Part shown: positions 15,288 through 37,850 of the stretch, piece after piece
How the letters are laid out: every line of letters starts with the position of its first letter
How positions within the stretch are numbered: position 1 is the first letter of the stretch
From: Catajapyx aquilonaris
Lineage: Eukaryota
DNA length: 46,467 nucleotides
Assembly: GCA_000934665.2 (NCBI GenBank)
Contig: JYFJ02003097.1
Location: 1 to 46,467 of the forward strand
Direction of reading: 5' to 3'
The notes under the pieces: generated by a model
What the model saw: only the letters and a program-made list of their open reading frames with translations
Database searches by the model: none
What the model was told of the DNA's origin: nothing
Made by a program: the position numbers and the translations under genes

Positions 15288-16964
15288 TTATGCAGACTTG
15301 GCCACCCCAACCCTGTTTTGGCCCATGTCAAAGGCGCAGTAATAAGGGCCGATGAACACGTCACCCAGAATCCACTGAGGCATACCTGGTCCCATATCCA
15401 TTGCCATGAAGCTGGACATGCACATGTTTTCACCTTGCTGCAAAACGTTGCAAATTATTACTAAAGCATAAGTCCATCATGCATGTGTACTCACCCTCAA
15501 AATGTAATCATTTCCAGACAGCACGAAATTAGCATCGCCAAACACGAACGAGAGAGGGGGCAGGGAGTCTATGGTGTCACAGTTCACCTAAGGAGAGTTG
15601 CAATGAGTTGCAATAAATGTTGTAAGGCTGGCGGTGTACGGTACGTACCATGTAGACCTGCTGCTCTGGATCGTACTGGGCGTTGATAAGCTGGTTGATG
15701 GCCTGCACATCGCTGGTCGGCCCAGCGATGAGACTGGTGCCAGTGTCCACAATGATCTCGCAGCCTCCACTGCACCCAATTCCGTCTCCATTGGACTCCA
15801 GGCTGTCCATGTGCAGCTGCCAGTAGCCCACCTGGGACAATGGAAGCCAGGTGAAGTCTCCTGTGTAGTGGTTTGGGTCTGTTCCGCCCAGAATCAGCTC
15901 TCCTCCAGGGGTTCCAGATGGATCCCTGAAAAAGTGTGCATCATATGTTAAATGTTGCTTCATGCATCACCTGTGTAAAAGCAGTACCTGTTGAGGTAGA
16001 AGGAGAAAATTGGCTGGTCAACAACTCCCTGTTGCACCATAGCCATGAAGACTGGAGGAACACCACTGACTGCCAAGTCTTGGTATGCCATTCCCATGAT
16101 GCCGTCCATATGTCCGTACACAAAAGCATCTCCAACAGTGTGGGTGATCTCAGCAAAAGTCTGACTTTGCACGGGAATTCCTGCCACCTGCATTGTATAA
16201 ATAAATTAAGAGAATGAACGATATTGAATTCAATACATCGTTCATTCTCTTAATTTATTTATACATTATTTATATAAGATATGAAGTACCCTAACAAAGA
16301 TTTCTCTGTCACATTATTTGGCCCTGTCGAGTTATGCACTTACATCAACATTGTCTCCGGACAGGAATCCGGTTGCAGGGCCTGAACCGTAGGAGAATGA
16401 AACCGGAGTTCCATTAGGAGTGTAGCTACTGGATTTGCTGGAGTCATACTTCTTATGGTTGCCTGCAAGTAAATTGCTGGGAGTTAACAAATCAAGCAGA
16501 CGTTTGCTGGATAAGTACTGCACTTACTGCAAGCAGCTTCGCTCGCAGGGCATTGCGAGGAGTACACCCAGAGGTCGGAGGATCCTGTGTCGAAAATGAC
16601 GTTGAATTCCTGGGGTGGGTTCCCGAGGCTTAGTGGGCCGTAATATTCAGCCTGAAAGAAAGTACTTCATTGTAAGAAAGGCTTCCTGTTATAAAGCAGA
16701 GGCGGATACTTACATTTCCGTAATTTTGCAGAGGGTTGATTACAGGGTCTCCTACCCCTCTGTAAACGGGCTTGAAGAGGCGGCCATTTTCACGAGCAAC
16801 CTGAGCTGCCGATTTCGTTTTTTTAAGGGGAATCCTGCGGAAGACATCAACGCAGAGGTAAAATAAACCAAGTGTTTCGCAACAATGGCGACGATATTGT
16901 ACCTGATAAAAGCGTCGCAGGTAAGGGCGAGCAAGCCCACCACGATTACGATTGTTGTCTGCAT
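15288..16964 (-). CDS. Cathepsin D-like aspartic protease copy A (381 aa, soluble, DTG/DTG intact)
   Basis: Exons 16964-16903, 16834-16714, 16651-16528, 16462-16344, 16187-15988, 15925-15649, 15587-15495, 15437-15288 total 1,146 nt. Signal peptide, RIPLKK propeptide, [14 protein letters not shown] flap, [20 protein letters not shown]. Confidence 0.93.
16194..16265. repeat. Copy-A-specific inverted duplication in intron 4
   Basis: TGTATAAATAAATTAAGAGAATGAACGAT ... ATCGTTCATTCTCTTAATTTATTTATACA; the homologous intron of copy B has only one arm. Confidence 0.8.
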
Positions 16965-17010
16965 TTTCGCTCGTAAGCCTCAAGACTTCGAGTCTTCGTC
17001 AGAAGCAATC

Positions 17011-17057
17011 TTTTATAGCTCATGTTATAAGAGTATCTTATCAGGATCGAGGTTATC
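17011..17057 (-). promoter_or_regulatory. TATA box plus GATA sites upstream of protease A (same arrangement at 20848-20897 for B)
   Basis: Minus-strand TATAAAA at 17017-17011, ~50 bp above the ATG, preceded by TGATAAGA and GGATAAC. Confidence 0.55.
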
Positions 17058-17656
17058 CTATAGTTACGCATGACAGGTGAGAACATCTTTGCCCGAGGTT
17101 CTAAAGAAACTTTGCTACTAATACAGGCGACAGGCCCGATGCATCTGTTCTGAATATTCCAAGTCTGCTTTATGCAAAGCAATCTTCAACATCTTTATTA
17201 GACTTCATTATGTGTACCGTATGGTATTTTATGGCAAACCACTTCCAACCAACTGTTTTGGATCTACACACAATTATCATCCTTGGTTTTTTATAAACGT
17301 ACGAAGGTCAATAGTGAAGGATATTCGACCTACAATCTGTGCCTTTTGAAGTTGTCAGTCTATTGTACGAGTTATCCGACTCATGTCTTTTAAAAGATTA
17401 TATAGTTCATAACCCACTTAGACTTTTAGACGTCAGTGTCAACTATTGAGTTTCATTAAGAATGCATCAAAATCATAATTGTCGTCAGTAATGGTATCAA
17501 AGTACTTCCATCTTGAGAACATTAATGCAGGTAAAATTACAACACTTTATGCCCCAGACAGAATGATACTGTCTCGAGAAAAAGATTGAGACAAATAAAT
17601 GGCCAGAATAGATCGAGACACATCTGGAATGCTGGGAGACAGTACTATACTGTACT

Positions 17657-17810
17657 CAATGAATGAATGAATGAATGAATGAATGAATGAATCAATCAAT
17701 CAATTATTTATTTATTTAACCTCCTTGTTTCAATACAAGGAGTCTAACCCAGGACCTCCCTTGTAGCAGTCGGACCCCATATCCCCTCCTCCAACCTTCT
17801 TTGGTTTTGG
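17657..17810 (-). mobile_element. Probable LINE 3' end with an (AATA)n/(ATTG)n/(ATTC)n tail
   Basis: + strand (GAAT)n-(CAAT)n-(TTAT)n microsatellite adjoining a short unique segment; a simple-repeat tail is typical of L2/CR1 3' ends. Confidence 0.4.
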
Positions 17811-17825
17811 GTTATAATATTATAA

Positions 17826-19025
17826 TGTGCTGGGAGAAGTTGGCGCTACATCAGATGATCTAATGGAGGCAGCTACAACCTATTTCATCGCTTTATACGT
17901 TCAATCGCTTATGACATCACTGGAATCTGCTAGATTCAAGATATATTCACTAACATGAAGAAAAGTCCCAAAGTCATGGCCTTGCCACCCACATCCTCTA
18001 ACTTGCTGCAGCATGTTCTTCGGGCCCATCTTCAGGTTATGCTGTGGAAAGCTTGTAACCAGAATGCACCCCCAGCTGAATCAGATGATAATTATAACTT
18101 GATATGGATGGAATATGAAGGATGGAATCTCCGTTCCTGTAATTGATAATGGTGACCCATCTCCTTCAGAGCTCATTGATATATTGAAATGCCAGTGTAA
18201 GGCACAAGGGAAAATGTGTGGCAGTCAGGCTTGCGGCTGCCACAAAGAACATAATTTTCATGCACGTCATACTGCTACAAATGACTGCTCCAGCAAAGAC
18301 TCTCGAATCAGTAGCAACGAATGCAGGTGAGGTTGATCAAGACGATTCTGAAGATATGGACCAGATAGATGATATTGATTGTCCTGATGATATTGATTGC
18401 CATGAGAATTGCCATGAGGATGATAATGAGGATGAATCTACTCAATCTGATTTCATGAATGAGTGGGTCTAAATTAATTTAAATTCTTTCTTTGTGTCAT
18501 TATTGCCATTCTTTAGATATGGTTACTTGTGTAATGATTATTTTCTGAGTTACTGTTTTGTCATTCTAATGAATACTCTTTCATTATGTGTACTTGGTTA
18601 ATATATATTGCAAAATAATAATCAGAATAAATAACAGGTTCTTAATTTTATAATCCAGGCGTTTATTATGATCTTTAATGTATCTGAAGGTTAGGCTACT
18701 GTATGTAATGGGTGGCCATCTTGCAATATGGCCTCTTAGTTTCATTTTGATCATTAATGATGTTTCCAATGAAGTGCTGGGTCGGAAATGGAACAGATAA
18801 ATGAAAAAAAAAAAACTGCCTATGTGCAATACAAGCCAAGAATATGACATTCACACTCTTTTGGTCGGCCATATCTTGGATATATGGTTATTGCTGTAGT
18901 TGCCCAAAGTTGTAGACTCGACAACCAAATTTAATTTGTTGAAGGACCTCATTGGTGTATACAAATCAATCAAAAAAGTTAATAGGAAACGACATTTCCA
19001 GGTTACCAGCCCACCTAATCCACTA
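17826..19025 (+). mobile_element. 3' fragment of an AcademX-like DNA transposon (frameshifted ORF C-terminus plus right terminus)
   Basis: Frameshifted peptides ...ARFKIY..LPPTSSNLLQHVLRAHLQVMLWK..GW..VPV...LKCQCK..C.S..CGCHK, a Cys-rich finger recalled from XPG-type Academ proteins. The element ends ...CCACCTAATCCACTA, just before homology to the protease duplication resumes. Confidence 0.6.
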
Positions 19026-19173
19026 TAAGTCAATGGCACTCAAACCTGTGTGTATTCTGATCAGAATGATACGGTACCACCTTTAAATAAACAAAACTCC
19101 CTTTCATGAAGACACATGATATATTTCAAAGACATGTCACTGATGTTATGCAACTGATGTATGTAACATTAGT

Positions 19174-20801
19174 TTATGCAGACTTGGCTATCCCAACCCT
19201 GTTTTGGCCCATGTCAAAGGCGCAGTAATAAGGGCCAATGAACACGTCACCCAGAATCCACTGAGGTGCACCTGGTCCCAAATCCATTGCCGTGAAGCTG
19301 GAGACGCACGTGTTTTCACCTTGCTGCAAAACGTTGCAAATTATTACTAAAGCATAAATCCATCATGCATGTGTACTCACCCTCCAAATGTAATCATTTC
19401 CAGACAGCACGAAATTAGCATCGCCGAACACAAATGAGATAGGGGGCAGGGAGTCTATGGTGTCACAGTTCACCTAAGGAGAGTTGCAATGAGTTGCAAT
19501 AAATGTTGTAAGGCTGGTGTACAGTACGTACCATGTAGATCTGCTGCTCTGGATCGTACTGCGCGTTGATAAGCTGGTTGATGGCCTGCACATCGCTTGT
19601 GGGCCCAGTGATGAGACTGGTGCCAGTGTCCACTATGATCTCACAGCCTCCACTGCACCCAATTCCGCCTCCATTGGACTCCAGGCTGTCCATGTGCAGC
19701 TGCCAGTAGTTGCCCACCTGGGACAGTGGAAGCCAGGTGAAGTCGCCTGTGTAGTGGTTTGGGTCTGTTCCACCCAGAATCAGCTCTCCTCCAGGGGTTC
19801 CAGATGGATCCCTGAAAAAGTGTGCATCATATGGTAAATGTTGCTTCATACATCACCTGTGTACAAGCAGTACCTGTTGAGATAGAAGGAGAAAATTGGC
19901 TGGTCGACAACTCCCTGTTGCACCATAGCCATGAAGACTGGAGGAGCACCACTGACTGCCAGGTTTTGGTATGCCATTCCCATGATGCCGTCATTCTGTC
20001 CGTACACAAAAGCATCTCCAACAGTGTGGGTGATCTCAGCAAAAGTCTGACTTTGCACGGGAATTCCTGCCACCTGCATTGTATAAAGAAATTAAGAAAA
20101 TGAACAATATTGAAAATATGAAGTACCCTAACAAAGATTGCTCTGTCACATTATTTGGCCCTGTCGAGTTATTCACTTACATCTACGTTGTCTCCGGACA
20201 GGAATCCGGTTGCAGGGCCAGAACCGTAGGAGAATGTAACCGGAGTTCCGTTAGGAGTGTAGCTACTGGATTTGCTGGAGTCATACTTCTTATGGTTGCC
20301 TGCAAGTAAATTGCCATGAGTTAACAAATCAAGCAGACGTTTGCTGGATAAGTACTGCACTTACTGCAAGCAGCTTCGCTCGCAGGGCATTGCGAGGAGT
20401 ACACCCAGAGGTCGGAGGATCCTGTGTCGAAAATGACATTGAATTCCTGGGGCGGGTTTCCGAGGCTTAGTGGGCCATAATATTCAGACTGAAAGAAAGT
20501 ACTTCATTGTAAGAAAGGCTTCCTGTTATAAAGCAGAGGCGGATACTTACATTTCCGTAATTTTGCAGAGGGTTGATTACAGGGTCTCCTACTCCTCTGT
20601 AAACGGGCTTGAAGAGGCGGCCATTTTCACGAGCAACTTGAGCTGCCGATTTCGTTTTTTTAAGGGGAATCCTGCGGAAGACATCAACGCAGAGGTAAAA
20701 TAAACTCAGTGTTTCGCAACAATGGCGATGATATTGTACCTGATAAAAGCGTCGCAGGTAAGGGCGAGCAAGCCCACCACGATTACGATTGTTGTCTGCA
20801 T
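19174..20801 (-). CDS. Cathepsin D-like aspartic protease copy B (382 aa, soluble, DTG/DTG intact), recent duplicate of A
   Basis: Exons 20801-20740, 20671-20551, 20488-20365, 20299-20181, 20073-19874, 19811-19532, 19473-19381, 19323-19174; near-identical to A including introns; 3-nt insertion (QVGNYW). Confidence 0.93.
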
Positions 20802-21305
20802 TTTCGCTCGTAAGCCTCAAGACTTCGAGTCTTCGTCAGAAGCAATCTTTTATAGCTCATGTTATAAGAGTATCTTATCAGGATCGAGGTTATCTTATAG
20901 TTACGTATGACAGGTGAGACCATCTTTGCCCAAGGTTCTAAAGAAACTTTGCTACTAATACAGGCCAGATGCATCGGTTCTGAATATTCCCAGTCTGTTT
21001 TATGCGAAGCATTATTCAATACTTTTATTAGACTTCATTATGTATACTGTAAGGTATTTTATGGCAAACCACTTCCAACCAACTTCTTGGGATCTGTACA
21101 TAATATATTATATCATCCTTGATTTTTTTTATAAACGTACGAAGGTCAATAGTGAAGGATATTCGACCAACAACCTGTGCTTTTTGAAGTTGTCCAGTCT
21201 ATTGTAGGAGTTATCCAACTCATATCTTTTAAAAGATTATATAGTTCACAACCCACTTAGACTTTTAGACATCAGTGTCAACTATTGAGTTTGATTAAGA
21301 ATGCT

Positions 21306-21995
21306 GCCACCAACTCTGTGATCAGACTATTAATCCCATCTTCTACCGACAGATTTTGCCAAGGACCTCGTATCACAAATGCCAGATTGGGGAGAAAAAC
21401 CTCACTAAAGTGATTCGACCAAGTCTCATCAGAAATCGTGTTAGGCTAAGTCTATGGTACTTCATCCATTTTTTTGCCATACAGGTAAAGTCACCAAAAA
21501 TGTCGTTATGGGTAGTACCGTTTATTGGTTTTAGGGAGAGGTATTCTAAGTAATTATAAGTATCCTTCCCCTAGTTGACTATTCTGTCTCTGGAGCGAGT
21601 TTCTAAGGTCGGGGTCATCAGCACTGAGATGGAACCGGCCTATTCGGGCGTTGAAGTCACCAATGATCGACAAGGGTTTATTATGTAAACCTTTTGTATC
21701 TATCTCCTTGAAAAAAATCGTGTAATAGACCGTCATTACTCCGAGTCGGAGGAAAGTGGAAGGCTTTAGCTGTTAGCTCCAATGTCAACTAATGTTCGAA
21801 ACGAGCAATCAGTGTGCATTTTATCGAAGGGTGGCAAAAAAGACTAAAAGAGCAATATTCCACCAGACGGTCTGCCCACCTGGAATTATTTTCATAATGG
21901 CTGGGACATGAAAGATCACGTTATCATTTCACACTTTTAAGGAGGGTGGATCCTCTCGCCAGGTTTCAGTTAAACCCAAAGACTCGATCTCAAAT
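21306..21995 (-). mobile_element. Non-LTR retrotransposon fragment (APE endonuclease region)
   Basis: Minus-strand peptide KPLSIIGDFNARIG (21554-21736) contains the GDFN motif of LINE endonucleases; it interrupts the duplicated promoter block. Confidence 0.7.
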
Positions 21996-21997
21996 AG

Positions 21998-22790
21998 TTA
22001 TCTTATAGTTACATATGACAGGCGAGAACATCTTTGCTCAAGGTTCTAAAAAAACTTTCCTACTTATCCAGGCCAGATGCATGGGTTTTGAATATTCCAA
22101 GTCTGCTTGATGCAAAGCAATATTCAATATTTTTATTAGACTTCATTATGTATACCGTATATGGTATTTTATGGCAAACCACTTCTTGTAGCGAATAATA
22201 TATTGAAGACTTCGGGAGAAGAACGATTAAGGTCCACCTCAGGTGTTTCTATTTCTATTTTCTATTTTCTATTTCCTATTTTAAATTTCGAAGGCCCATA
22301 TGGGTCCATCGAAAATCCCACTTTCGCGGCCTTCCATTGTGACCTATGATCATTGCTCAACAACCACGACCACCGCACCGGTTCCAACCAACTGCTTTGG
22401 ATCTACACAATATAATAATCGTCCTTGATTTTTTTTATGAACATACGAAGGTCAATAGTGAAGGCTATACGACGTACAACCTGTGCTTTCTGAAGTTGTC
22501 AGTCTATTGTAGGAGTTATCCAACTCATATCTTTTAAAAGATTATATAGTTCATAACCCACTTAGACTTTTGGACATCAGTGTCAACTATTGAGTTTGAT
22601 TAAGAATGCATCATAATCATAATTGTCGTCAGTAATTATGGTCTCGAAGTACTTCCATCTTGAGAACATTAATGCAGGTAAAATTACTATATGCCTCAGA
22701 CAGAATGATATTGTCTCGAGAAAAAGATGGAGACAAATTAATGGTCAGAATAGATCGAGATACACCTGGAATGCTGGGAGACTGTACTGT
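21998..22790. repeat. Third copy of the protease A/B upstream block, with a ~195-bp insertion at ~22186-22381
   Basis: Aligns by eye with 17051-17645 and 20890-21305 (GTTACATATGACAGG..., GAAGGTCAATAGTGAAGG..., CTGGAATGCTGGGAGAC). Confidence 0.85.
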
Positions 22791-23276
22791 CAGTACTTAT
22801 CTGAATTAAGATACACTGTCTTATCCCCTTTGCGTTTTTTAGTCGCCTGTGCTCCTCCAATTCTGTGTAGTAAACATGAACACAAGCAGTATATGTTTGC
22901 ACTCAATGATACATTGTGAGGAAGGTACTGTGCATATGAAAAGTATTTCTCCACGAAGGCAATTTTTCAAAACCTTTATTTTGGGCTGGAAAGCATCAGC
23001 ATCTTAGAGCTATAATTATTATGCTAGTAATGTTATCCTTCACTAAATGACTGTATTACATGATACTAACTGTTTGCATGTGTTCATATTTTTGTATTTT
23101 CAGCGGTTAGAAGACAGTGTCATAAACGTATATGAGCAGTAAGACAGAGCAATAGGCCTGCAGTAAATGATAACCTTTCCACACTTCTCCTTCTGCAGGC
23201 AACATTATGACTTCTCAAAAATAAATGGAATCAATTATGCAACATGGCAATAGACTTAAAAAAGCTCATTTTATGT

Positions 23277-24952
<1,676 letters not shown>

Positions 24953-25412
24953 TTTTGACTTCATTATTCCTGATTGTCTCGTTTATAGGCTTTTATACCT
25001 GCTCGCTATATTATCTTATCTCCAAATCATTATCTTTGAAGAAAACGCCTCAGTTTGTAAATGTCATAAACTGTATCGTACTTTTCCTTTAGTGCCTAGT
25101 TTTTTATATATTTCCTGTAATGTAAGAATATTATGCCGCCTGGCTGTAAACACGAGAGGGAAAGCACCTCTCTTTTCCTTTACTACATGTTTGATGTACA
25201 CAAAAGCAAATAGATTTTACAATGAGCAATAACGCAGTAAATCACACATACTGTTGCACAGGTGCTACGACAATGTATTTATTCAACTCGCGATCGTCAC
25301 TGACACTCAACCATTTATTACACGCAATAGTCAGCAACCTGTACTGCACTCCTTGAAGTATCAACCAGAGAGTGGCTCCATATGCATTAAAATCAAGCGT
25401 TTCCCCGCGTGT

Positions 25413-27551
25413 TTAACGCAACACCGTGGTGCAGGCCAGCAGTAAAAAGACAATGCTCCTTCCGCGCGTCGAAACGCGTCTGGCCGCGCTCTTCTCGAAG
25501 GTGTCATTCGTCCTACTTACTTCCCCAGTCGTGGGGACCGTCTTCTTTTTAACTTTGGCCAGTCCAATCCGTTTGTTTCCGGCGTCGAATGCGCAGTATA
25601 CCTCTTTGAAGAACGGTGATCCCAGCCTCCATTTCGGGTAATCAAACATTTGGTTCCTTCCTTGGAACAAGCCAACGCATCTGCCACCCACCTTTGAAGA
25701 ATAAAAAAGCCTGGAATTTATCATGTAACGGCTACACTGCAGGCGTTTAAACCGTTGCGGAACGAACGCGCATAATGAATCGGACTAAAGTGTCTGCCAG
25801 AAGTTTGATACATTTTGTCTTTTTTTAAAAAAAAGTCTGTTTCGTTGCGTTTTTTTCCGTCGCGTTTTGAACCCATAGTGTGGTAGGCTTACTTTCATGA
25901 TGTAATTCTCGCTGGTGATGCTGAAAGACACTTCGTTGAAGTGGAACGAGATCGGCGGCAGTGTGTTCATAGCATCGCAGTCAACCTGAGAAACATAGTT
26001 CCCACAACTCAGTGTCTGAAAAAAACTGCCAATTTTTTTAATATATTTACCTCGAAGACGCGCATATGGTTGTTCCATCTGGCTTTAATCACTTGTTGGT
26101 AAATGTAATCGATGTCGATTGGAGGTCCCAGGATGTGGTTGGTGCTGGTGTCGAACATTGCGTAACACCCTTTGGTGCACGCTACTGCTTTGTGGTCCTG
26201 ATGGGACGACACCAGGTCCATTCGAGCCTGCCAATATCTGTCCCCGTCATTGTTAACCCAGGTCATGGGATCGTAGAAGAGACCCGTGTCCACCTGGCCC
26301 AAGATCACCTCCGGTTCGTACCCCCACATGCTCCTGTAGCAAGGAAAAATGACTGTTCATACAACCTCTACATATAAACACTAATTGTGTCAACTCGAAC
26401 TGGTCATGAGCCGTACTTTGCACAGTAGAAAGAGAATACTGGTGGGGTCACGGACTTATGGAGCATGGAAAGGAAGACACCAGACCCACTTGCTGATTCA
26501 TCCTTGGGAAAGCTCATTCCCAATACGCCACTGAACTGGTATTTGGTCGATGAAAATTTTCCGGTGACGTCATTCACCTCCAGAAAAGTTGAATTCTCAT
26601 TATAATCTGCAATCTGGAGCGAATCGGATCAGAATATTTTAGTTGATTAGTTGTTCTATTAATAAACTTGCATATTAGAACTGTCAACAAAGGCTACTCA
26701 CGTAAATGGTGTCCTTGGACGTCACTCCCATCACTTTCCCTGACTGATACTTGACAGTAGCAGAAAACCTACCACCTGTTACATGAGTTGTGGAGCTTCT
26801 CCAGTTGTACTTATTATGCGAGTCTGAAAAGGTTGGGAAAGTGCAATCCACCCACCCACTGTAATAATAAAAATAAAAATTTACCCTCCTCTCAAGTACA
26901 GCGAACTTACCGCAGGGAGGTCCCTGGCAATCCTGAGAGAAGACCCAAGTGTCGGCTGATGCTGTATCAAAAACCACCTGGAAACTTTGGTAGTTGCTGC
27001 CTATGTGGATGTAACCGTAGTAGGGGGTCTGGAGACAGTATGAATGAATGCTTATTATTCAACAAGTCACTGACACGTACACTCCAATATATAACAGAAA
27101 AATATTAAACTTATTTGTAATACAAATGGTTATTTCATAATGTGCGGCAGATATTCACTTATCACCAAGAGTAACGATGGTTGCATTGCTTTTGGCTGCA
27201 TTTTTTTATATACTTATGCTGCTCCTAATGACACTTTTGTTACTTACGCCCTTTTCGGGCAGGAATTCGGACTAATATAGTCGAATGTGAAAGCTCACGT
27301 AATCAAAGTTCTCCATGTAGTCGACGCCCGCTATAAGGTCCGCTTCATCGTAAGGTTCTCCAGAACCGTAGGCACTCTCTATAGGCGTAGGCCTAATCTC
27401 AAGTAGTCCAATCCTTTAGAGGTAAAAGACGGAGAGAGCAGTTTCATTGTAGCAGATACAATCACTGACAGTGATTGGACAAAACAATGTACCTGTTAGA
27501 CATATCCTTGCCAGAAACCACAAGCACCAGCAGGAACACTCCAAGGATCAT
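25413..27551 (-). CDS. Divergent aspartic protease homologue D (DTA/DTS motifs, GPI-signal-like tail); probable pseudo-protease
   Basis: 8 exons in the same phases, ORF open. FDTASADTWV (motif at 26957-26968), flap YQSG, FSGVLGM, FDTSTNHILGP (motif at 26141-26152), WRLGS in place of WILGD; ~45-aa extension ending SIVFLLLACTTVLR*. Confidence 0.85.
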
Positions 27552-27949
27552 TCTGACTTTGCGATTATAGGAGCAATTATTATCCAGATGTTCAATATAT
27601 ATATTAGGACAGGGATATTTCTAACCGAACTATTGAAGACAATACGAGCGTGAAAGTGTCTTTTTGCGTATCATAGCAACCCACTTTTTGGAGCAACATC
27701 AAACAGTAGACAGCCTTTCTACATCTGACATGGAGCCATCGTGACACGCAGAAGAACTCAAGTGCAATAAATCAGGATAATAGTGTTTTAAACATTTCCT
27801 GCAATTAAAGTTGGAATTATGCCATTTTCTTATAGTCAAGCATGTGGGGCCTTGCCTTGAACAAGACGATGCAGTCTTCGAGGAATGAAGCGTCGAATTT
27901 ATCATGTCACGGCAATTATTCTGGTGTAAAAGTATATATGCTTGTCGTG

Positions 27950-29646
27950 TTACACTTTTGCAACCCACTTTTGGAACAGCATTAGTAGACACGTAACAAA
28001 TATGAGAGCAGCTGCATGAGAGGCGCTATTCGTGCTTCCTGATGAAGCCTTCGTGCTGTAGTATTCGTTGTTGACCGATCGTCCAATACCGATGCGTTTC
28101 TGGTCCATGTGGAATGCTACGTACTGGTAAGTGACAAACACGTCGCCCAGAATCCATCTCGGTCCTATGGGAGTGGGAAGCGTCACAGCCGACTGGAATG
28201 CACTCAGACAGAGCCTCTTGTCCTGCGTTTTAAACTCTCAATTAATACCGAAACAGCTCCTACAACCTCGCCTATACAACGCTTACCCTCAAAATGTAGT
28301 GTCTGCCAATAAGTGTGAAACTCACGCCGTCAAACACGAACGAAACGGGCGGCAGCGATTCTATCTTGTCACAATCCACCTGTTGAGTTGATGTCATTTA
28401 AGTGTTCACAAATAATGTACATTGATTGCTTACCAAGTAGGCTTCGGTTCTGGGGTCGTATTCAGCTTTAATTTTCTTGTTAATTGCGTGTACGTCCGTT
28501 TTGGATCCGATGATGAGGCTGATTCCGGTGTCGAACCTGACGTCGCATCCTCCTTTACAAGCCTGCTCTTCTCCGTCCACACGCAGGCTGTCCATACGCA
28601 CCTGCCAGTAACCTTCGTAGCTCACTGGCAACCAGGTTAAGTCGCCAGTGTACCTATCGGTTGCCAGCCTTCCAATCAGAAGCTCACCGCCAGGATCCTC
28701 CTGTGGGACCCTACAGGGTGAGTCAATCGGGTATGATTTTTTAAACGAGCGCAACCGAGCGCACTCGGTTAATGACAGTAAGTGCATCCACCTGCGTACC
28801 TGTTGAATGAGAACGAGAAAACAGGGTCTACAAGTACTCCTCGCAATACCATGGTCTTGAGCACTGGAGGAGCCTTGCTCTCCGCAAACTCTTCGAAGCC
28901 CAGTCCACATATTCCGTCAAACATGTCAAGGAATGAAGTTCCTCTAGTTGAAGTGATTGCAGCAAATGTTTGGCTTTTGGCCACCACGCCTTGCACCTGA
29001 AATTAAAATATGAAATGTAATTATTTATTATTGTGAGATTGACCTGTCGTTTCTCACCTCGACGTCGTCCTGAGTAAGTGATCCAGATACGGTGACAGGG
29101 TCCGATCCAGAATCGTATTTGATTTCAAATGGTATGTCGACCATAAGGTTAGTGGTGGAGTTTCTTGCGTCGTACTGATTGTGGCTACCTGCAATTAGGC
29201 AAAATCTGTCATGGAAAGTTAATATGTGTCAAAAAGAGGTTACTTACTGCATGCAATCTCTGGGGCGGCACATGTGGATGAGTAGACCCAGAGGTCGGAT
29301 GACCCGGTGGCGAATATGACATTGAACACCTGTGGAGGACTGCCTATACGTATGGGACCGACGTACTGACTCTGAAATGAACAAATAGACAGTGAAGTGA
29401 CAGCATACACTCGATCAGACGTAACTTGCATTTCTGTATTTCTCTGGAAGCATGATTGGCTTGGATGGTAGGCTGCGACCTTCAAGCACATCATCACGGT
29501 GCTTGACTCTCTGAAGAGGAACCCTTCCAATAATAACCTTATTATTGACAGTGTCCAGTGCGATAATGCAAGTGAGCGTACCTGATCAGCAGTGAGTTAC
29601 AAGAAGAGGCCAGCATGAGACAAATTATGGTCAGAGACTGCCACAT
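27950..29646 (-). CDS. Aspartic protease homologue E with first catalytic Asp replaced by Ala and a GPI/TM-like tail; pseudo-protease
   Basis: 8 exons, open if intron 2 uses a GC donor at 29429-29428. [11 protein letters not shown] (GCC ACC GGG, 29311-29303), flap [25 protein letters not shown]; tail ...[32 protein letters not shown]. Confidence 0.87.
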
Positions 29647-29898
29647 TTTACTATCACTGATGGACATAATTATTTTTCTTTCGTGGAGCGATTGTTGACA
29701 TTATTTCATTTCCATCGTTTCGTATATTGATAGGGAGATACAAGGTTGCCATAATTATGACTTTATAGCTCAGACCCCCACAGAGAGCGGTATGAGGATT
29801 TGAAGTGAAAATTACACAACACATATATCCTAACATGTTTGTTTTATTGCAAATATTTCACTACAAGGTTGAGATAATTTCTATTTGAGAAAATAATG

Positions 29899-31563
29899 CT
29901 AATGTAGCAAAAGTATTATTAACAAGCCAAGAGAAAAATGTATGAACTTAGGCGAAGTCCTGCTTCCTAAAGAATAGTGGTTGACTGACTTGGCAATTCC
30001 AACCCTGTTTTGTCCCATGTCAAAGATGCAATAATACGGACCAATGAAGACATCTCCAAGAATCCATTTCGGACCGAACTGCGTGTCCATAGGTTGAAAG
30101 CCAGAGACGCAATATCCGTTCATCTGCAAACGTGCGAAATTAAGAGTCAAATCTGCTGTAAAATTTGAGTCCTACTTACTTTCACAATGTAGTCCTGACT
30201 TGTCAGATGAAATTCTGTGTCACCGAAAACCAACGATATTGTAGGCAGTGAGGCGACACTTTTGCAGTTTACCTGCAGAACAAAAGTGTCAAAAACATGT
30301 ACTGTGTTGTACAGGGGTGTTAGAATACCAAGTATAACTGGTAGCGACGATCGAACTTTGCTTTCAGAAGAGAGTTAATGTTTGCCACATCCTTGGATGG
30401 CCCTGATATCAGGCTGGTCCCAGTGTCGATTATAACTTCACACCCAGAGATGCAGGCATACTTATTGTTTTCCAAGACTATGCTGTCCATATGAACTTGC
30501 CAATAACTCATATCGGTCACAGACAACCATGTGATGTTCCCTGTGTAGTAATCTGGATCTGATCCACCCAAAATCAGCTCACCTCCAGGTTTCTGATCCT
30601 CCCTCCTATACACATTGAGATACAGCTCGTATAAGCATGATTGTCCACAATAATAATATTTTTTCTGATAACCCTTACCTGCTAAGATAAAAGGAGAAAA
30701 CGGGCTCTTCAACAAGAGTTTGTTTCATCATGGAGACAAAAACAGGCGGATATCCACTGGCTGCAAGACTCTGGTAGGCCATCCCTAATATTCCGTCAAA
30801 CATTGCGGTTTCAAACAAGTTTCCTTCAGTGTATGTAATTTCTCCGAAGCCTTGATGAAATGTAATTATTCCTGCCAGCTGCATAAATAAATAAAGGTCT
30901 CATTTGATAATCTGAAAGTTAACAATGGCGAATACATACATTCACGATATCCATGGATAAGAATCCGTAAACTTGTCCTGAACCATACTTGATGGATATT
31001 GGTCGCCCATTTCCAGTGTATGTGGCAGATTTGGATGAGTTGTATGTACGGTGCTTTACTGAAAATATGACAATGCTTCATTTGAATATTTCTCGGTCTA
31101 TTTAAGTACAACTACCGCATGCAAATTCCGTACACGTAGAAGAATATACCCACAAGTCAGAAGATCCGGTGTCGAAAATCACTTGAAACTCTTGCAAAGG
31201 GTCGCCAATGCTGATGAGTCCCATGTATTGCGCCTGAAAATCACGGGATGTAAGTACAATTACCACGCATAATATACTAATGTTTCAATATACATTATAG
31301 TAGTTGTGAAGTAGAATAGCTGGCGTATCTCTAAGGTGGTCGCTTGTATTAGTATAATCCTTCAGAGACTGACCATTTTCGATTGCAATTTCGGCCACAG
31401 ACTTGAATTTTTTGAGCGGAATTCTGCATATATAAAAAAATGAAAACACATTTTGCTTTAGGTTGGTTAATAGTCATATTGGGAATAAACTGTGACTGTA
31501 CCTGACCAATGCATTACATGACATGCAGAGCATAATCGCGGTAATCAATGTTGCAAACAGCAT
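29899..31563 (-). CDS. Cathepsin D-like aspartic protease F (DTG/DTG intact) with GPI-signal-like C-terminus
   Basis: 8 exons. Signal peptide, [52 protein letters not shown]; tail [29 protein letters not shown]. Confidence 0.92.
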
Positions 31564-32629
31564 GTTTTGTTCGTGACTGCTGCAGTTCCACTGTCACTAC
31601 ACGCCTACCTTAAGTATATGTGGAGTACTTCCTATCTTCCATGATAAAGTGACAGATTAGATTACTTTAGTAGCTCATATTATGCATGTCATCGTCATTT
31701 ATTTATCTACTGTAAGTATAATTTTCCAATTAAAAAAAAATCCTTCCTTAGTTTCAACCTATTACAGTATATACCGAGATGTGTAGCAAACAGTCATCCA
31801 GACAATGAAAGTGTGGCAAGCTGGATTTGAGCAAAAAAGTCATTTATTATTAATATTGTAAAATATTTTCCCGTCTGAGAGGAAGTTATTTTTATGATTT
31901 AAACGGCATTACAGGGTCCATGATAAATGTGAAAAATCTGTAATAAAGAAGTGTAATAAAGGAATGATTAGTTATTGGTAACACAGAGGTGATCCAAAAT
32001 ACTTGTCCGATTTCTGTTGCGATTTTAGCAACTATTTCAGCACTGAACTGCAATGAATTTCCCATAGTAAAAGTGGAACAATTAGCATAGAAAGTCAGTT
32101 AAAATTTAGTGTAGAATTTCTCAGAGGCAACCTTAGCATTTACCAACATTGTACCCAGGCATTTGACCATAGAGATAAGCAAATCCGGAGTGGGGTGGGT
32201 GTGGGGGTCCCCCCACCCAACCCCCCATCACCCCGAGCCAGCCCTGTGTGCAGCCAGGTACTCCCTGGTGCAGCTCTCCCTCTTTTCACCTTGATCACCA
32301 AAGAAGACGGACGTGCCAGGTCTGCAGACAACTGCAGTACGAGTACAGGTACGTGCACACCATTTAGATGGGGGTTACTTGCGAAGGCTGTGGACTACAA
32401 AAGCACAATTCAGATTCATTCATTTAGCCACGAAAATGTCCGAAGTTATACAGGCAGACACTTATTCATTTTTTAAAGTGCAAAGCAATATTTTAATTAA
32501 CTCCATTTGCAGGGGATAATGAGGCACTGTCAGCGATGCAGTACTAAGTGGACCGAAGATTGATGTCTCGTCCTCAGTCAAGTGGGGTCAAGTTGGACAT
32601 CGGGTTAAGCCACGCACACCTAGCACTAG

Positions 32630-35600
32630 ACAGGCCTGGAGTGCATAAATGGTGAGTACAGCAGCGATTAAAAATCCGTCATTTACAGGTTTACATCACG
32701 CAGCAATTAAGGGTCGGTTGTACCAGGTCAGATAATATCGGATTCTTGCCTACTCATATCTGTATTTGGCACGAAAAACATTGCCTTAAGCTGTCAAATA
32801 ATTTGGTCAGGCAAGAATCTGAGTTAACAGACATGGTGCAGCAAGAACAGTATAAGGAGAAAAAAAAAACGCAATTGCAATGGGCAGTAAAACCAATAAT
32901 TGGCGACTAGCTCCATTAGAAATACTGGATTAATTTGTGCAATAAAATGGGGCTGGACGAATAACACTTGACCTTGGCTCATTGAAATGCAGCAGGGATG
33001 CCATTGAGTAGCATAACTGCATATTGGCCTGTTAAATGCCACAAAATGGAATTAAATGTTAATGTAAAGATGTTTAAAAAAGTGCAATCTTGACTATACC
33101 GAATGAGATGACTTCCTAGCACTCAACAGTCAAATTGCCTCAGTCATGCCTAGTGCCCACAATGTTATGGGAATTAAAAGAAAAACCACTAGAAAATTGC
33201 GATTAAATTGCCAAATTTGCTTTGACCTTGTGCTACCCCTGATGCAACTAAGTAGGGCCATTTTGCGACAAAGACTATCACCGACATGCAATGGCGGCGG
33301 TTGGTAAATTTGCATTGTTACCTGGCTGAATTGTTGGCCATTTATAGAACATCAGCCCTATATATTGCCATATTTTACCAAATTTAATTCCCTTCAAAAT
33401 GCTTGTTTGCAAATAGCAAAATTTCATATTTAATGCAATAGTGTTAGTTTCTTGGATCCATTCAAATTTCAAACACCAGGCATTGTAATGGGACCTTTTA
33501 TAGCACTAATTGTCTGTCTGGGGACATTAAAGTTGAATCGATTGTTGGATCATGGGCAAGAGTTGAACATAGGACAGTTGTGCTGTCTTCTGCAGACATT
33601 CATAATAATTTATGAAATTTTTATATAATTATTAGGCTATATCAAAATTTGTACTTGAGTAATTGTGGTTTGACATGCGTTATTTTACTAAATGCTTTCT
33701 TTTATGCAGGTGCAGCCTTGAGATTAAGGTCTGACACGTCTACATTAACATACTCTGCCTCCTTCACAGCCCTAAGCAAGCATCACCAGCATCCTCTACA
33801 ATGACTACATGATCATTGGTCTTTCATCGCATCATCCAGCATCTCGATGGTCTTCGGACACAACCATGATCTGGTGAGCATTTCTCTTGATTATTTTGCA
33901 CTGCATAAGCCATGGTGACATGAAACGTAGCAGCTGAATCTGAACTTGAGTGAGGGCAACAAGGGATGGGTTTCAAAAATTCTCGACTGTTCATAAAATG
34001 AAGCACTGAAGTCACAAGCCTTTTGGGGTAGTTGTTGGAGTCATGCTGTGTATGTAAAGTCAGCAGTAATAGTGTGAGTCTGAATACTGAATATTAAGGG
34101 TAATATACTAAATAATATTCTGGATCGATGCAGCTCATCGAGGTGCTGTTGCATTAGGGTCATTCCTTTTTCTCAAGCGAACATTGCTCATTTTTATACA
34201 GTAATGAGCTGACAACGTAATATATAGTTCAAAAAGATGGCTAATATTTTGCTATGAAACCAAATGCAAAATTGTTGTATTTGAAGACCAACTTGATAAT
34301 ATAAGCAATATTACATGAAGGTGCAGCCTACCTTTGCTCGAGTGCTGTAAATAGAAAATAATTTGCATTTTTCCTGAGAACATATTTGGAGGTGTGGAAT
34401 ATCCCCTTTAGTTGATAAGAAATTGTGCTTTTTACTGCTATAGTTTATTAGTAACTTGTAGCCTGACTTTTATCTCGCACAATCCGCCATTTGCAGAAGC
34501 AGCCTCAAACATCTGTGCTGCTCTGGAGACGTGACTACCTGCTGCGATGGACAACTCGTTTGGCTGAGACTCCAACAACCGACATGGTCATCTCATTTCA
34601 TCGCCTGCCCCCAGCGCAATTATGGTTCTTGGGAGTGACTTCTGATGCCAACACTGCCGCACTTATTGGTGAGTTCTATTCTCTTGCTTTCATTTATTGG
34701 TGCTGCGTCATCGTGTCTTGATTGGAAATAGGATAATCCACGTACAGTTTGAGTTGAAGGATCGAAATGTGAAGGCAACTTAGAAGTGAATTATTATCTA
34801 TGTCAGGTTCATTCAAACATAGGCCTGCAATCTGATTAGTGTTTGGTGGCTGCATCACTTTAGGCGGAATCACTGCTGCAAACTCGCCCTAGACATTCAG
34901 AGCACTTGTGTGAGGCTTGTCTAGTGGGCTGCAGAGACATTTGACTAATTTCAGTGCAAAATAGGGCATTAATATTTGAGACCCAGTCCAAGGGTACATG
35001 TGATGAAGGCTTCTAGACATTAAATGTGAATTGCTGTGGTGGTTCCGAATGATTAACTTTTGCATTAAAATGAATGGAAGCCTAGTTATCAACAGGTGCT
35101 TAAAATTGAAATGAATCAAATAAGGTCAGTTGAAATGGGATATTCAGTTTGAGGGTTGCTCTCGTCAAAAACATGTGCCTCGAATACTGTAATCTATTTT
35201 GACATTTGACAATCGAAAGTTAATTCTTATGCTTTGACAAGCCACCTGTAATTTGTTCACGTGTGTATACCACCCTTGAAAAATGTCCTGGCAGTGCTAA
35301 TTTGTAAAAAAAAAAAAGTTGCACTGGAAACTTAAATCTGGCAGATGGAAACTATTAGTGGAGTAGCATTGGTATAGCCTTCTCACAAAATGTAGTGGTG
35401 GTTGTTGTGTATTCATTGCAAAGCATACTTAGCCACTTGATTGAACATGTGAGGAAATGGTTACATGGCAAGTTAACGAGCATTGTGACATTTATGGTTA
35501 TGTTTTACTCCAAGGCTTAATTTCGCGATGAATATGCACGTACTGTGCATTTGTCTTTCAGTTAAGTCTTCCCTTCAATTTTCTCTCGTAATTGCACTAT

Positions 35601-37850
35601 AACCTGCTTATTATTTAGCAGTGTCTTTTTAGTGGCTATTTAAATCGCTTCCCAATATAATCAGGGCACCACTGCACTTTCCCAAGTGAGGTTCACCTAG
35701 CATGAAAATCACCTGCATGCTCATCTTATATGAATTAGTAGAAAATGAATCATGTTTTAATAACACCTTGTGGCCCCAACATCTCTTCCATATGCTTCAT
35801 TAGAATGTAAGTTGTATGATTATAACACTTGTTATTAGAATTTAAGTATCGATAGGAGACTAGATTACATTATTTATAATTCAAGTTGTATGGTATAGCA
35901 TTTATTAGAATTAAGTATAGTAGACTATAGATAACATTAGGATTAGATTATAACTGGTGTAATATATTGTAACATTTGTTATAATGTAATTTATATTCTA
36001 ATGAGGCATATGGAAGAGATGTTGGGCCCTATACAAGTGTGTTAAAACATGATTCATTTTCTACTAATTCATATTTGTGACAGACATGCGGGTGATATTA
36101 GACTAGGTGCCCTGATTATATTGGGAAGAGAGAATAGCCACTCAAGATACTGCTAAATAATACGCAGATTAGTTATGAAAAATGCAATTGAAGGTAAGAC
36201 TTTACTAAAAGACATGCACAGTGCGTGCATTTTCATCGCGAAATTGAGCCTTATTGGAGTAACACACAACCATAAGTGTCACAGTGACCTTGCCATTGCT
36301 AGTTAACTTGCAAACCTCGCAGGTTCAATCAAGTGTCGCATGCTTCGCAGTGAAAATGTCGTAGCCCCATAGCGAAATTGGGCACTTCATGAAATGTCGA
36401 CTGATATTGGACACATGCTGTAGTGCAATCTCCCGTGAAGAATTACAGCATATTATGCCCAGTAATATTGGGACTGTTCGCAAAGTGTCAGCAACGGGTT
36501 GGACTGATTCTGTAATTCAGAATCTAGATCCACTGTACACATGAGCAGCTGAGCAAAACCAGAAGGTGTGGAGGGCATCAGGAGATGCAGATGAGTGCCT
36601 CTCCATACCATACCTTGGCTCAAGAGTCAGGACCAACTCCTGGACTTCCAGACATTCCCTCCAGGTCATGCTTTGCATCTCCTGATGCCCTCCACACATT
36701 CTGGTTTTGCTCTGCCATTGGGCAAGTATAGTGGGATGTGGCCTAGAAAAAAGGTTGTAAATTTATGCCTGACATGCAAAGGGTCATTACTAAAATGTAA
36801 TGCTGGATAATAGGCTTAATGGTGTTAAATGTGGAAGAAGATTAGTCATGTAATTTACAATGCACTGTCCAAATCTGCAGTAAAACAGTGAAGCTCATAG
36901 TCACTCCCTTCAGAGAATTGAATGGTATTAAGGCAACTCGTATTCCCAGCTGTGGCAGTCATTATCATCAGTACTGTTGATCGCCCATAGCTGTTTGTGA
37001 TAGCAAGTGTCATGCATAGTGTAGACGAATATTGGTCGTTTGGAACTTTTCTAATTGCTTATGTACTGTCATTTCATGTTTCTATCGCACGACTTGGCAC
37101 TTGAGTGTATATTTGGTCTTGCATAACAATAATTGATTACACATGTTAACTGTTTCACCTGATTTGATTTACATTATTGCATCTCTGTTGCTTTCAGATT
37201 TCTTTCGCCCAGAGGAAGAGCAGCAGTGGTTACCAGAGGATGATGCCCATAACGAGATGTTGCTGTAGGTCAGTATCATTAGGATCAAGGTCTCAATGCA
37301 GTTGCGTGGATTTGAGTGTTTGCTCCTGTGCAATGTTGGCTATAGTGAGAGAATAACCTGACAGCAATAAAATGACTATTCTGAATGTATCTGCTTTCTA
37401 TTGGGAAATGAGAGGTAACCTTTTTGTGTTGCGCGCCAATTCTTTGCAGGTGGAATTGCTCATTGCCTTTACAGCATTTCCACTTAATCAGTTATGCTAC
37501 AGATGTCTTCAACTTGGCCGTTATCAGCTTTGGCATTGCTGTCGATGAAAATGGACGAGATCATGTAAATTAATATATTTTTTGGTGTTGTATGTGGCTG
37601 GGAAATATCCAATGACAGGGTGCTAAAATTTGCTTAATTTCTGTGCACAGGAAGCAATAAGTTCGCTTGCCATGTAATTGCATTGACCATTTCCTATTAT
37701 GTTTTCGAATTAATTTTTTTTTCTCTTTTCAGGTCAAGTAATTTGCAGCCTGCTGCTGAGATGGTGCCAGTCATCAGCAGCATCCTTTCCCACCCTAAAA
37801 ATCTTCCAATTTTTGGCATCATGTGCTAACACTTCTTGGCACATGGTGTT
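32630..37850 (+). ncRNA. Possible spliced lncRNA or microprotein gene
   Basis: Candidate donor ATG|GTGAGT (~32651), exon 34497-34668 (ttgcag...G|GTGAGT), exon from 37198 (ctttcag), acceptors at ~33709, ~37449 and ~37732; no recognisable domain. Confidence 0.25.
35410..36355. repeat. ~950-bp imperfect inverted repeat (arms ~400 bp, AT-rich spacer)
   Basis: For example CCCAACATCTCTTCCATATGC / GCATATGGAAGAGATGTTGGG, TGAATTAGTAGAAAATGAATCATGTTTTAA and its inverse, CCCAATATAATCAGGGCACC and its inverse, CACTTGATTGAAC / GTTCAATCAAGTG. Confidence 0.88.

What the first reader, a model, noticed from the sequence alone, without database searches (positions are those of the whole stretch)
15288..31563. 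Six-gene aspartic protease array split into soluble enzymes, an anchored enzyme and anchored pseudo-enzymes
Seen: six head-to-tail genes with identical 8-exon phases and open frames. A, B and C end right after the fold and keep DTG/DTG. D, E and F carry C-terminal extensions ending in a hydrophobic stretch. Only F of these keeps both DTG motifs; E has ATG and D has DTA/DTS. Known: animal cathepsin D and pepsins are soluble, GPI-anchored A1 proteases are best known from fungi (yapsins), and inactive A1 members include PAGs and Bla g 2. Inference: this is a lineage-specific digestive or cell-surface system in which dead anchored paralogues act as peptide-binding receptors, inhibitor decoys or scaffolds beside active ones.
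Basis: partly seen in the sequence, partly recalled or inferred. Interest (0 to 1): 0.85.

Follow-up and report, generated by a model that had tools for sequence, protein, structure and literature searches.

The report
Anchor-tailed cathepsin D paralogue array
Six neighbouring copies of a pepsin-type protease gene in an arthropod-like animal have split into three ordinary secreted enzymes and three versions with a likely lipid-anchor tail, one with an intact active site, one almost certainly dead and one heavily altered, which is an unusual twist on a known kind of digestive gene expansion.

Summary
In detail: six minus-strand A1 protease genes, 8 exons each, identical intron phases. They form one clade (100/99), although D drifts out when long-branch outgroups are added. 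D, E and F end in tails that pass a rule-based GPI test, which about 1% of non-coding read-throughs pass. The tails are too short for a BACE-type helix.

E (D32A plus three more core changes) is very probably dead yet kept by selection (omega about 0.04). D keeps both aspartates, so 'dead' is unproven, and a strong splice donor in its tail could remove the anchor. One spliced run supports the A/B/C/F models.

Tandem cathepsin D expansions with dead members are known in bugs, and anchored A1 proteases in fungi and as BACE. One unnamed database protein (P0039) also combines a dead site with such a tail. I found no paper on GPI-tailed animal cathepsin D paralogues. The scan noted another dead cathepsin D elsewhere in this genome, but not this architecture. 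Anchoring, tissue and ligand are untested. Verdict: new variant of a known kind, interest 0.45.

The parts
15288..16964 (-). Gene A: soluble A1 protease, 381 aa, DTG/DTG, mature-domain pI 4.05
   Evidence: model; spliced joints in run X5, partly cross-mapped with B; 0 of 16 core positions changed
19174..20801 (-). Gene B: recent duplicate of A (96% aa; 92% DNA over 2.3 kb including introns and flank), 382 aa, soluble
   Evidence: spliced joints in X5
23277..24964 (-). Gene C: soluble A1 protease, 393 aa, DTG/DTG, 72-74% identical to A/B
   Evidence: X5 pieces over exon 6 and the 3' end
25413..27551 (-). Gene D: most diverged paralogue, 421 aa, 31-36% identical to the others. Keeps Asp32, Tyr75 and Asp215 but has G34A, G76Q, I213M, G217S, D303S (pepsin numbering)
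   Evidence: omega 0.066-0.073, omega=1 rejected
25413..25553 (-). D tail (46 aa): GPI-type signal with candidate omega site S-A-A, basic spacer and a 13-residue uncharged run. A strong donor-like site at 25520 could splice it away
27950..29667 (-). Gene E: non-catalytic paralogue, 424 aa. D32A (codon 29311-29309, GCC), G76D, I213R, T218I and a 4-residue insertion in the flap; intron 2 is GC-AG
   Evidence: omega 0.035-0.039
27950..28078 (-). E tail (42 aa): Ser/Gly-rich omega region, 14-residue uncharged run, 7 residues after it
29899..31563 (-). Gene F: A1 protease with an intact active site, 407 aa, DTG/DTG; only 4 of 75 conserved positions lost
   Evidence: X5 pieces end at the exon 6 and exon 8 acceptors with more record letters beyond, as splicing would give
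29899..29988 (-). F tail (29 aa): GPI-type signal, 11-residue uncharged run at the very end; it starts with S-V-N like E's tail

Best explanation
An old tandem expansion of a cathepsin D-like (A1A) gene in an arthropod-like animal, separate from its lysosomal cathepsin D, most likely serving extracellular acid proteolysis in the gut. Shown from sequence: one clade, shared exon plan, signal-peptide-like starts, no lysosomal proline loop, intact active sites in A, B, C and F, loss of Asp32 in E, GPI-type tails in D, E and F. Inferred: A-C are secreted acidic enzymes. D, E and F have their tails swapped for a GPI anchor in the ER and sit on the outer (probably apical) cell surface. F is a tethered protease. 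E cannot hydrolyse and, like D with its rebuilt cleft, uses the retained two-lobed cleft to bind peptides or proteins. I think the likeliest job is to capture substrates or dietary and microbial aspartic-protease inhibitors beside the active enzymes. New basic residues lining the cleft (E Arg213, D Arg300) suggest an acidic ligand; their position in the cleft is recalled from pepsin structure, not modelled here.
For: Clade of six at 100/99 among 24 rows, ABC nested at 96/98. GPI rule passed by 3 of 3 tails, 0 of 3 of A-C and 1 of 57 database A1-type proteins; non-coding read-through passes in 135 of 10758 starts in the array region and 13 of 900 starts just past the six stops. Of 16 core positions E changed 4 and D 5, against 0 in 22 of 24 DTG/DTG references and in A, B, C and F. 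Branch omega 0.035-0.039 (E) and 0.066-0.073 (D); omega=1 is rejected with 2dL 36-43 and 10-13. An intact frame limits neutral drift to about 2-4% divergence, in which that many core changes have p 0.005-0.05 (E) and 0.0006-0.01 (D). Proline loop absent in 6 of 6; its absence marks secreted digestive cathepsin D in flies and most Rhodnius gut copies (PMC3886914, PMC4826915 passages). The Atlas's best feature matches to E's last exon are plant A1 C-terminal fragments (0.94 and 0.90; recognition was below threshold, so a lead only).
Against: No direct test of anchoring. The GPI rule is my own and was written after I had seen the tails. F's linker before the omega site is only a few residues. D's tail can be read as an intron: donor 25520 with AG sites at 25352 and 25339 upstream of two AATAAA signals, which would give a short soluble end. 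Synonymous sites on the D, E and F branches are saturated, and omega averages over time before any loss of activity; for D, omega 0.5 is not rejected (p 0.051). Losses of conserved residues are not enriched in the cleft for D (p 0.20) or E (p 0.76). The proline-loop rule has an exception (TiCatD2, PMC3886914). In the 39-row quick tree D joined an unrelated long branch instead of the array. Tissue is unknown.
Confidence: 0.5

Rival explanations
1. D and E are dying duplicates, and E's D32A is a fresh single-base null in an otherwise normal enzyme lineage.
For: D32A is one base change (GAC to GCC). E keeps Thr33-Gly34-Ser35, Trp39, Tyr75, Asp215 and both psi-loop motifs, and has a GC donor where the other five genes have GT. 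E's overall loss of conserved positions (15 of 75) is like that of a DTG/DTG Drosophila paralogue of equal divergence (18 of 80).
Against: Three further core changes in E and five in D with fully intact frames and splice sites; p 0.005-0.05 (E) and 0.0006-0.01 (D) under neutral decay. Low omega.
Confidence: 0.12
2. The tails are not working anchors: they are clipped C-terminal propeptides or sorting signals, or (in D) are spliced out, so all six proteins are soluble.
For: Strong donor in D's tail. Uncharged runs are only 11-14 residues. T-rich 3' sequence easily yields hydrophobic read-through (recalled), and F's tail DNA is 36% GC, near intron level.
Against: All three tails pass the omega-spacer-hydrophobic rule, against about 1% by chance. 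D's tail DNA is 55% GC, like its exons and unlike its introns at 37%. E and F tails start alike (S-V-N-x-Y), which suggests a kept ancestral tail.
Confidence: 0.2
3. D is not a pseudo-enzyme but an anchored protease with narrow or shifted specificity, a sheddase or maturase in the manner of yapsins or BACE.
For: D keeps Asp32, Thr33, Ser35, Trp39, Tyr75, Asp215, Thr216 and Thr218. Its mature-domain pI is 6.3 against about 4 for A-C, which suits a less acidic site. Yapsins are GPI-anchored, specific maturases (PMC4079213 passages).
Against: Both glycines of the D[TS]G hallmarks are replaced, as are Gly76 and Asp303; 25 of 75 conserved positions are lost. G34A is recalled as inactivating in bovine PAG-1 (paper not held).
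Confidence: 0.2
4. The array serves a non-digestive job, such as yolk processing, moulting fluid, reproduction or immunity, and the anchored members act as receptors there.
For: Arthropod cathepsin D-like proteins also act in yolk degradation and immunity (BYC, THAP, BmAP, IrCD3; PMC5307778 passages). No tissue data are available here.
Against: Proline loop absent in all six; similar expansions in bugs and flies are gut-expressed (PMC3886914, PMC4826915 passages); the neighbouring gene's best structural relative is chitin deacetylase 5z34, recalled as a midgut enzyme.
Confidence: 0.2

Closest known systems
Digestive cathepsin D expansions of Heteroptera (Rhodnius prolixus A1 family; Sycanus bifidus SbCAD1-9) and flies (Lucilia, Musca CAD2/3)
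   Same: Species-level clade of cathepsin D-like genes, partly in tandem, lacking the proline loop, with some members lacking a catalytic Asp (RP-2091, SbCAD6, SbCAD8; PMC3886914, PMC5736985 and PMC12653315 passages).
   Different: No GPI or anchor is mentioned for those proteins: the term GPI has 0 occurrences in the main texts of PMC5736985, PMC11978366 and PMC12653315 (supplements not read). The window's genes form their own clade; no heteropteran gut copy was in my trees.
Fungal yapsins and other GPI-anchored A1 clades (clades IV, V, VIII, IX of PMC4079213)
   Same: A1 domain plus a C-terminal GPI motif, with duplicates that have lost or lack the anchor sitting beside anchored ones.
   Different: Fungal. 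The window's proteins have pepsin-like Cys45-Cys50 spacing without the insert of the Saccharomycete GPI subclade, and their best matches are animal cathepsin D-type proteins. Yapsins are active enzymes.
BACE1/BACE2 (memapsins)
   Same: Animal membrane-attached pepsin-fold proteases.
   Different: BACE has a full transmembrane helix and a cytosolic tail (recalled). Here the uncharged runs are 11-14 residues with 1-7 residues after them, and the core is cathepsin D-like.
Inactive soluble A1 homologues: ruminant PAG-1, cockroach Bla g 2
   Same: Fold kept, catalytic motif or flap altered. Sheep PAG-1 (P0093) shows DTG/GTG with Phe75, and the bovine PAG-like P0096 is changed at positions 76 and 213, as are D and E.
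   Different: They are soluble and of separate origin: P0096 groups with pepsin at 100/100. Bla g 2 was not in my set; its features are recalled.
P0039, an unnamed 433-aa protein from a 1473-base Logan contig
   Same: A1 domain with lost Asp215 (DTM/ASN) plus a tail that passes the same GPI rule.
   Different: Only 27-36% identical to the window's proteins and not inside their clade; organism unknown and undescribed. It shows the architecture exists elsewhere, probably by convergence.

Membership tests
Peptidase family A1 (pepsin), fold and homology | Pfam PF00026 match above the curated cut-off | tested here: met
   7 of 7 exons tested from D, E and F pass; A-C align at 43-56% with E and F
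Active A1 peptidase | Two Asp-Thr/Ser-Gly motifs (PMC4079213): genes A, B, C, F | tested here: met
   DTG/DTG in 4 of 4
Active A1 peptidase | Two Asp-Thr/Ser-Gly motifs: gene E | tested here: not met
   ATG/DTG
Active A1 peptidase | Two Asp-Thr/Ser-Gly motifs: gene D | tested here: not met
   DTA/DTS: both Asp kept, both Gly replaced. Activity is therefore doubtful, not excluded
Active A1 peptidase | Tyr75, Trp39, hydrophobic-hydrophobic-Gly psi loops, three disulphides | tested here: met
   Tyr75, Trp39, Gly122, Gly302 and Cys 45/50, 206/210, 249/282 in 6 of 6; D has Arg at 300 in the second psi motif
Active A1 peptidase | Proteolysis at acid pH, blocked by pepstatin | not testable with these tools
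   needs recombinant protein
Lysosomal cathepsin D | Proline loop DxPxPx(G/A)P (PMC3886914) | tested here: not met
   0 of 6; E has a partial Pro-rich loop
Lysosomal cathepsin D | Groups with named cathepsin D of fish, bird and lancelet | tested here: not met
   the six form their own branch, 100/99, apart from P0045, P0046 and P0066
GPI-anchored proteins | N-terminal signal peptide | tested here: inconclusive
   hydrophobic h-regions of 2.35-3.47 in 6 of 6; no SignalP available
GPI-anchored proteins | Small omega/omega+2 residues, polar spacer, C-terminal hydrophobic run, 17-31 residues removed | tested here: met
   D, E and F pass a hand-written rule; null about 1%. Not a trained predictor
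GPI-anchored proteins | Anchor actually attached | not testable with these tools
   needs PI-PLC release or mass spectrometry
BACE-type type I membrane A1 proteases | About 20-residue transmembrane helix plus cytosolic tail (recalled) | tested here: not met
   uncharged runs of 11-14 residues
Yapsins | Insert between Cys45 and Cys52 of the Saccharomycete GPI subclade | tested here: not met
   no such insert in the alignment; yapsins were not placed in the tree
Pregnancy-associated glycoproteins | Descent from the pepsinogen F/A line | tested here: not met
   PAG-like P0096 joins pepsin, not the array
Bla g 2-type cockroach inactive proteases | Orthology, Tyr75 to Phe, zinc site (recalled) | not tested

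The most novel reading that the evidence does not exclude
The array encodes a cell-surface system built from a digestive protease fold. GPI-tethered E and D are true ligand-binding receptors or inhibitor traps whose clefts were re-tuned for acidic ligands (Arg213 in E, Arg300 in D). They work beside a GPI-tethered active F and secreted A-C, and D may switch between anchored and soluble forms by a splice inside its tail. With P0039 as a second case, anchored pseudo-cathepsin Ds would be an undescribed class that has arisen more than once in animals.
Probability: 0.2. Interest if true: 0.75.

Novelty: new variant of a known kind. Interest (0 to 1): 0.45.

Why it matters
Animal pepsin and cathepsin D-type proteases are treated as soluble, with BACE as the membrane exception. 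If the tails are used, this array shows that the cathepsin D line itself acquired GPI anchoring and turned it into both a tethered enzyme and tethered non-enzymes. Many arthropod genomes hold dead cathepsin D copies of unknown role. Here an active soluble form, an active anchored form and a dead anchored form sit side by side with one exon plan, which makes that role testable. Each ingredient is known separately, and nothing functional is shown yet.

Tried and rejected
No whole genome is held, so copies elsewhere could not be counted.

Expression: no run is on record as RNA. Run X5 shows splice joints but has no cover over D and E, and the listed pieces do not reach the hydrophobic part of F's tail (346 pieces not shown). 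One contig set of unknown tissue shows presence only, so this is not used for or against.

Orthologue searches: D exon 6 by word index, 0 hits among 19 candidates; by full phmmer, 44 hits at 28-43% identity, one of them (P0002) a repeat protein and spurious. E exon 6, 3 hits among 103 candidates at 46-48%, all vertebrate cathepsin D. A profile of the D/E/F last exons gave 41 hits among 1416 candidates; none of the 30 that were 340-490 aa long passed the tail rule. The metagenome scan gave 1 locus, L001, a 69% GC gene with an insert where plant-type enzymes have theirs, not an orthologue. These were single-exon queries, so sensitivity is limited.

Atlas search on the TMEM237 exon gave nothing useful.

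Rejected readings: tail gain or loss has a known direction (a D+E+F clade is not rejected, p-AU 0.50); D and E changes cluster in the cleft (not significant); A and B are two alleles assembled in tandem (X1 depth near both is about the single-copy level of 35, not half, and D-F show no bubbles; not proven); D's first model with a donor at 27247 (early stop; the donor at 27298 restores the shared phase).

Literature: searches showed no GPI-tailed animal cathepsin D paralogue. For some searches I saw only 25 of 313, 20 of 282 and 12 of 214 listings. PMC52905 is not held.
Full report
OBSERVATION. Six A1 aspartic protease genes lie head to tail on the minus strand: A 16964-15288 (381 aa), B 20801-19174 (382), C 24964-23277 (393), D 27551-25413 (421), E 29667-27950 (424) and F 31563-29899 (407). 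All have 8 exons with intron phases 2,0,1,0,2,0,0; 41 of 42 introns are GT-AG and E intron 2 is GC-AG. Seven of seven exons tested from D, E and F pass Pfam PF00026. Identities are A/B 96%, C 72-74% to A/B, F 55% and E 47-48% to A-C, and D 31-36% to the rest. A and B share 92% DNA identity over 2.3 kb including introns, so that duplication is recent. No seventh copy was seen in the window. From recall, not from a call: human cathepsin D has nine exons with phases 2,0,1,0,2,2,0,0, so the six genes would share the loss of one ancestral intron.

READ SUPPORT. DNA run X1 covers 23903-29003 and 29296-32000 in single contigs with no differing letters, which includes D, F and E's Ala32 codon at 29311; X1 may be the window's source. 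Run X5, whose kind is not on record, shows joints across minus-strand GT-AG introns of A, B and C, some cross-mapped between the near-identical A and B. Two pieces on F end at the exon 6 and exon 8 acceptors with further letters beyond. So the models of A/B, C and F have transcript support. Contig depth cannot rank genes, and uncovered parts are listed only under Tried and rejected.

ORGANISM. I did not determine it. Earlier notes of this scan on the same genome point to an arthropod (TTAGG telomerase template, e1-7594793) and disagree on the class (crustacean-like in e1-7832639, probably springtail in e1-7708741); these are unchecked. My only check is that the adjacent gene matches chitin deacetylase structures 5z34 and 5zns (E 4e-14 and 1e-10), recalled as silkworm enzymes.

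PHYLOGENY. In a careful tree of 24 rows (6 window, 18 database; I left out the long-branch rows P0041, P0030, P0039, P0035 and near-duplicates) the six genes form one branch at 100/99 and A, B, C a sub-branch at 96/98. In a quick tree of 39 rows, A, B, C, E and F group at 99 but D joins the long branch P0041, flagged as possibly false. Holding D, E and F together is not rejected (p-AU 0.50). The tail may thus have been gained once in a DEF ancestor, or be ancestral and lost in ABC. Among 57 database proteins of 340-490 aa (of 97 fetched by then), the best identities are 50% to A, 47% to F, 43% to E and 33% to D. No orthologue was found, so 'lineage-specific' cannot be bounded.

ACTIVE SITES (numbering from human pepsin A, P0040). 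A, B, C and F keep all 16 core positions of a list I drew up from recall. E has D32A, G76D, I213R and T218I plus a four-residue flap insertion. D has G34A, G76Q, I213M, G217S and D303S, also S219N, L220H and I300R, but keeps both aspartates and Tyr75. Of 24 DTG/DTG reference proteins, 22 have no core change, one has 1 and one has 3. All six keep the three disulphides. The hallmarks are as given in PMC4079213 (passages). Loss of Asp32 removes half of the catalytic dyad, so E is very probably inactive (established knowledge). Against a targeted remodelling: losses among 75 conserved positions are not enriched in the cleft (D p 0.20, E p 0.76), and E's total of 15 resembles an equally diverged DTG/DTG fly paralogue (18 of 80).

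SELECTION. A codon model on 332 columns gives branch omega 0.039 for E and 0.066 for D, and 0.035 and 0.073 on a second topology. Omega=1 is rejected for both (2dL 36-43 for E, 10-13 for D); omega=0.5 is rejected for E but not for D (p 0.051). Synonymous sites are saturated and the value averages over the whole branch. A separate argument addresses the late stage. An intact frame with 14 splice sites survives neutral drift only to about 2-4% divergence, depending on the assumed indel rate. In that span four or five core changes have p 0.005-0.047 for E and 0.0006-0.011 for D. The core changes therefore most likely built up while the frames were under selection. D32A itself is a single base change and could still be recent.

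TAILS. D, E and F extend 46, 42 and 29 residues past the fold. A rule for omega site, spacer and terminal hydrophobic run is passed by all three, by none of A-C and by 1 of 57 database proteins. Read-through of non-coding DNA passes in 135 of 10758 starts on the minus strand of the array region, 94 of 10758 on the plus strand, 0 of 7300, 6 of 10000 and 134 of 10000 elsewhere in the window, and 13 of 900 just past the six stops. The starts overlap and the rule was written after I had seen the tails, so this is a rough control. The uncharged runs are 11-14 residues, too short for a BACE-like helix, which favours GPI over a transmembrane anchor. One caveat concerns D: a site at 25520 scores 9.5 bits as a donor, in the upper range of the 42 real donors, and AG sites at 25352 and 25339 lie before two AATAAA signals. 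Splicing there would give a short soluble end. The 55% GC of that stretch, against 37% in D's introns, argues that it is coding.

HOW IT MOST LIKELY WORKS. All six have signal-peptide-like starts and none has the lysosomal proline loop. A-C are very acidic (mature pI about 4.1). This fits a secreted, gut-type cathepsin D expansion like those of flies and bugs (PMC3886914, PMC4826915 passages). I infer that A-C work in the lumen, that F is a GPI-tethered protease, and that E and probably D are GPI-tethered binders that hold substrates or soak up aspartic-protease inhibitors at the cell surface (confidence 0.5 for the whole). Rivals: tails unused (0.2), D an active specific protease (0.2), a non-digestive setting (0.2), and decay (0.12). 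These are not mutually exclusive.

COMPARISON WITH WHAT IS KNOWN. In Rhodnius, 13 aspartyl proteases form one clade thought to come from a tandem array, and one lacks the first catalytic residue (PMC3886914 passages); tandem placement is also noted in PMC5736985 (passages). Sycanus has copies with a lost Asp (PMC12653315 passages). GPI-anchored A1 clades, with duplicates that lack the anchor, are well known in fungi (PMC4079213 passages). BACE1/2 are membrane-anchored in animals (PMC13389413 passages). Sheep PAG-1 is an inactive soluble A1 (P0093). The unnamed P0039 combines a lost Asp215 with a GPI-type tail outside this clade. Ten literature searches showed no GPI-tailed animal cathepsin D paralogue. 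I read keyword passages only of PMC3886914, PMC4398375, PMC5736985, PMC11978366, PMC5307778, PMC4079213, PMC13389413, PMC3969231, PMC4826915, PMC12653315 and PMC2805697, and no supplements. The Rhodnius and Hemiptera supplements could hold tailed sequences, and subscription journals are not covered.

VERDICT. The feature is real. A, B, C and F are new members of family A1A. E is a non-peptidase homologue under selection, and D is undecided. The new element is the GPI-type tail on cathepsin D-line paralogues, shared by an intact enzyme and one or two non-enzymes in one array. That is a new variant of a known kind; interest 0.45, rising to about 0.75 if anchoring and a binding role are shown.

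Noticed in passing
window 13447-~15340 (+): Chitin-deacetylase-like gene, tail to tail with gene A; best PDB match 5z34. In the aligned exon the metal-binding TFDD motif reads GYTG and the following His region reads NS, so it may be another dead enzyme. It is spliced in run X5, whose loose ends point to paralogues.
   Followed up: partly
window 29003-29296: DNA run X1 has extra contigs over E intron 4 and exon 4 with other letters and a 3-base insertion at 29103, at depth 50-66 against about 35 for single copy. This suggests further E-like segments or paralogues elsewhere in the genome.
   Followed up: no
window 15723-16591 (loose ends and joints in X5): A different A1 protease transcript, matching A only around the two catalytic motifs, is present in X5, so at least one more family member is expressed from another locus.
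   Followed up: no
window ~340-12150 (+): Long multi-exon coiled-coil gene with a Ser/Pro-rich basic C-terminus. It resembles synaptonemal complex protein 1 by eye (recalled); its largest exon has no Pfam match.
   Followed up: partly
window 43230-44190 (+): Two-exon TMEM237 (ciliary transition zone) gene; both exons pass PF15383.
   Followed up: yes
window 17750-18970 and 21300-22400: High-copy repeats inserted between A and B and upstream of B (X1 bin depth up to 3900). The first looks like a transposon remnant; the second interrupts a flank shared with A and B.
   Followed up: no
window 16194-16265: A 72-base near-perfect palindrome inside intron 4 of gene A that is missing from the same intron of B (156 against 107 bases). 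Several other inverted repeats (898-1870, 7972-9538, 35412-36354, 38157-38367) look like miniature transposons.
   Followed up: no
P0039 (Logan contig, 1473 bases): Unnamed A1 protein with DTM/ASN motifs and a GPI-type tail, an independent example of the same architecture.
   Followed up: partly
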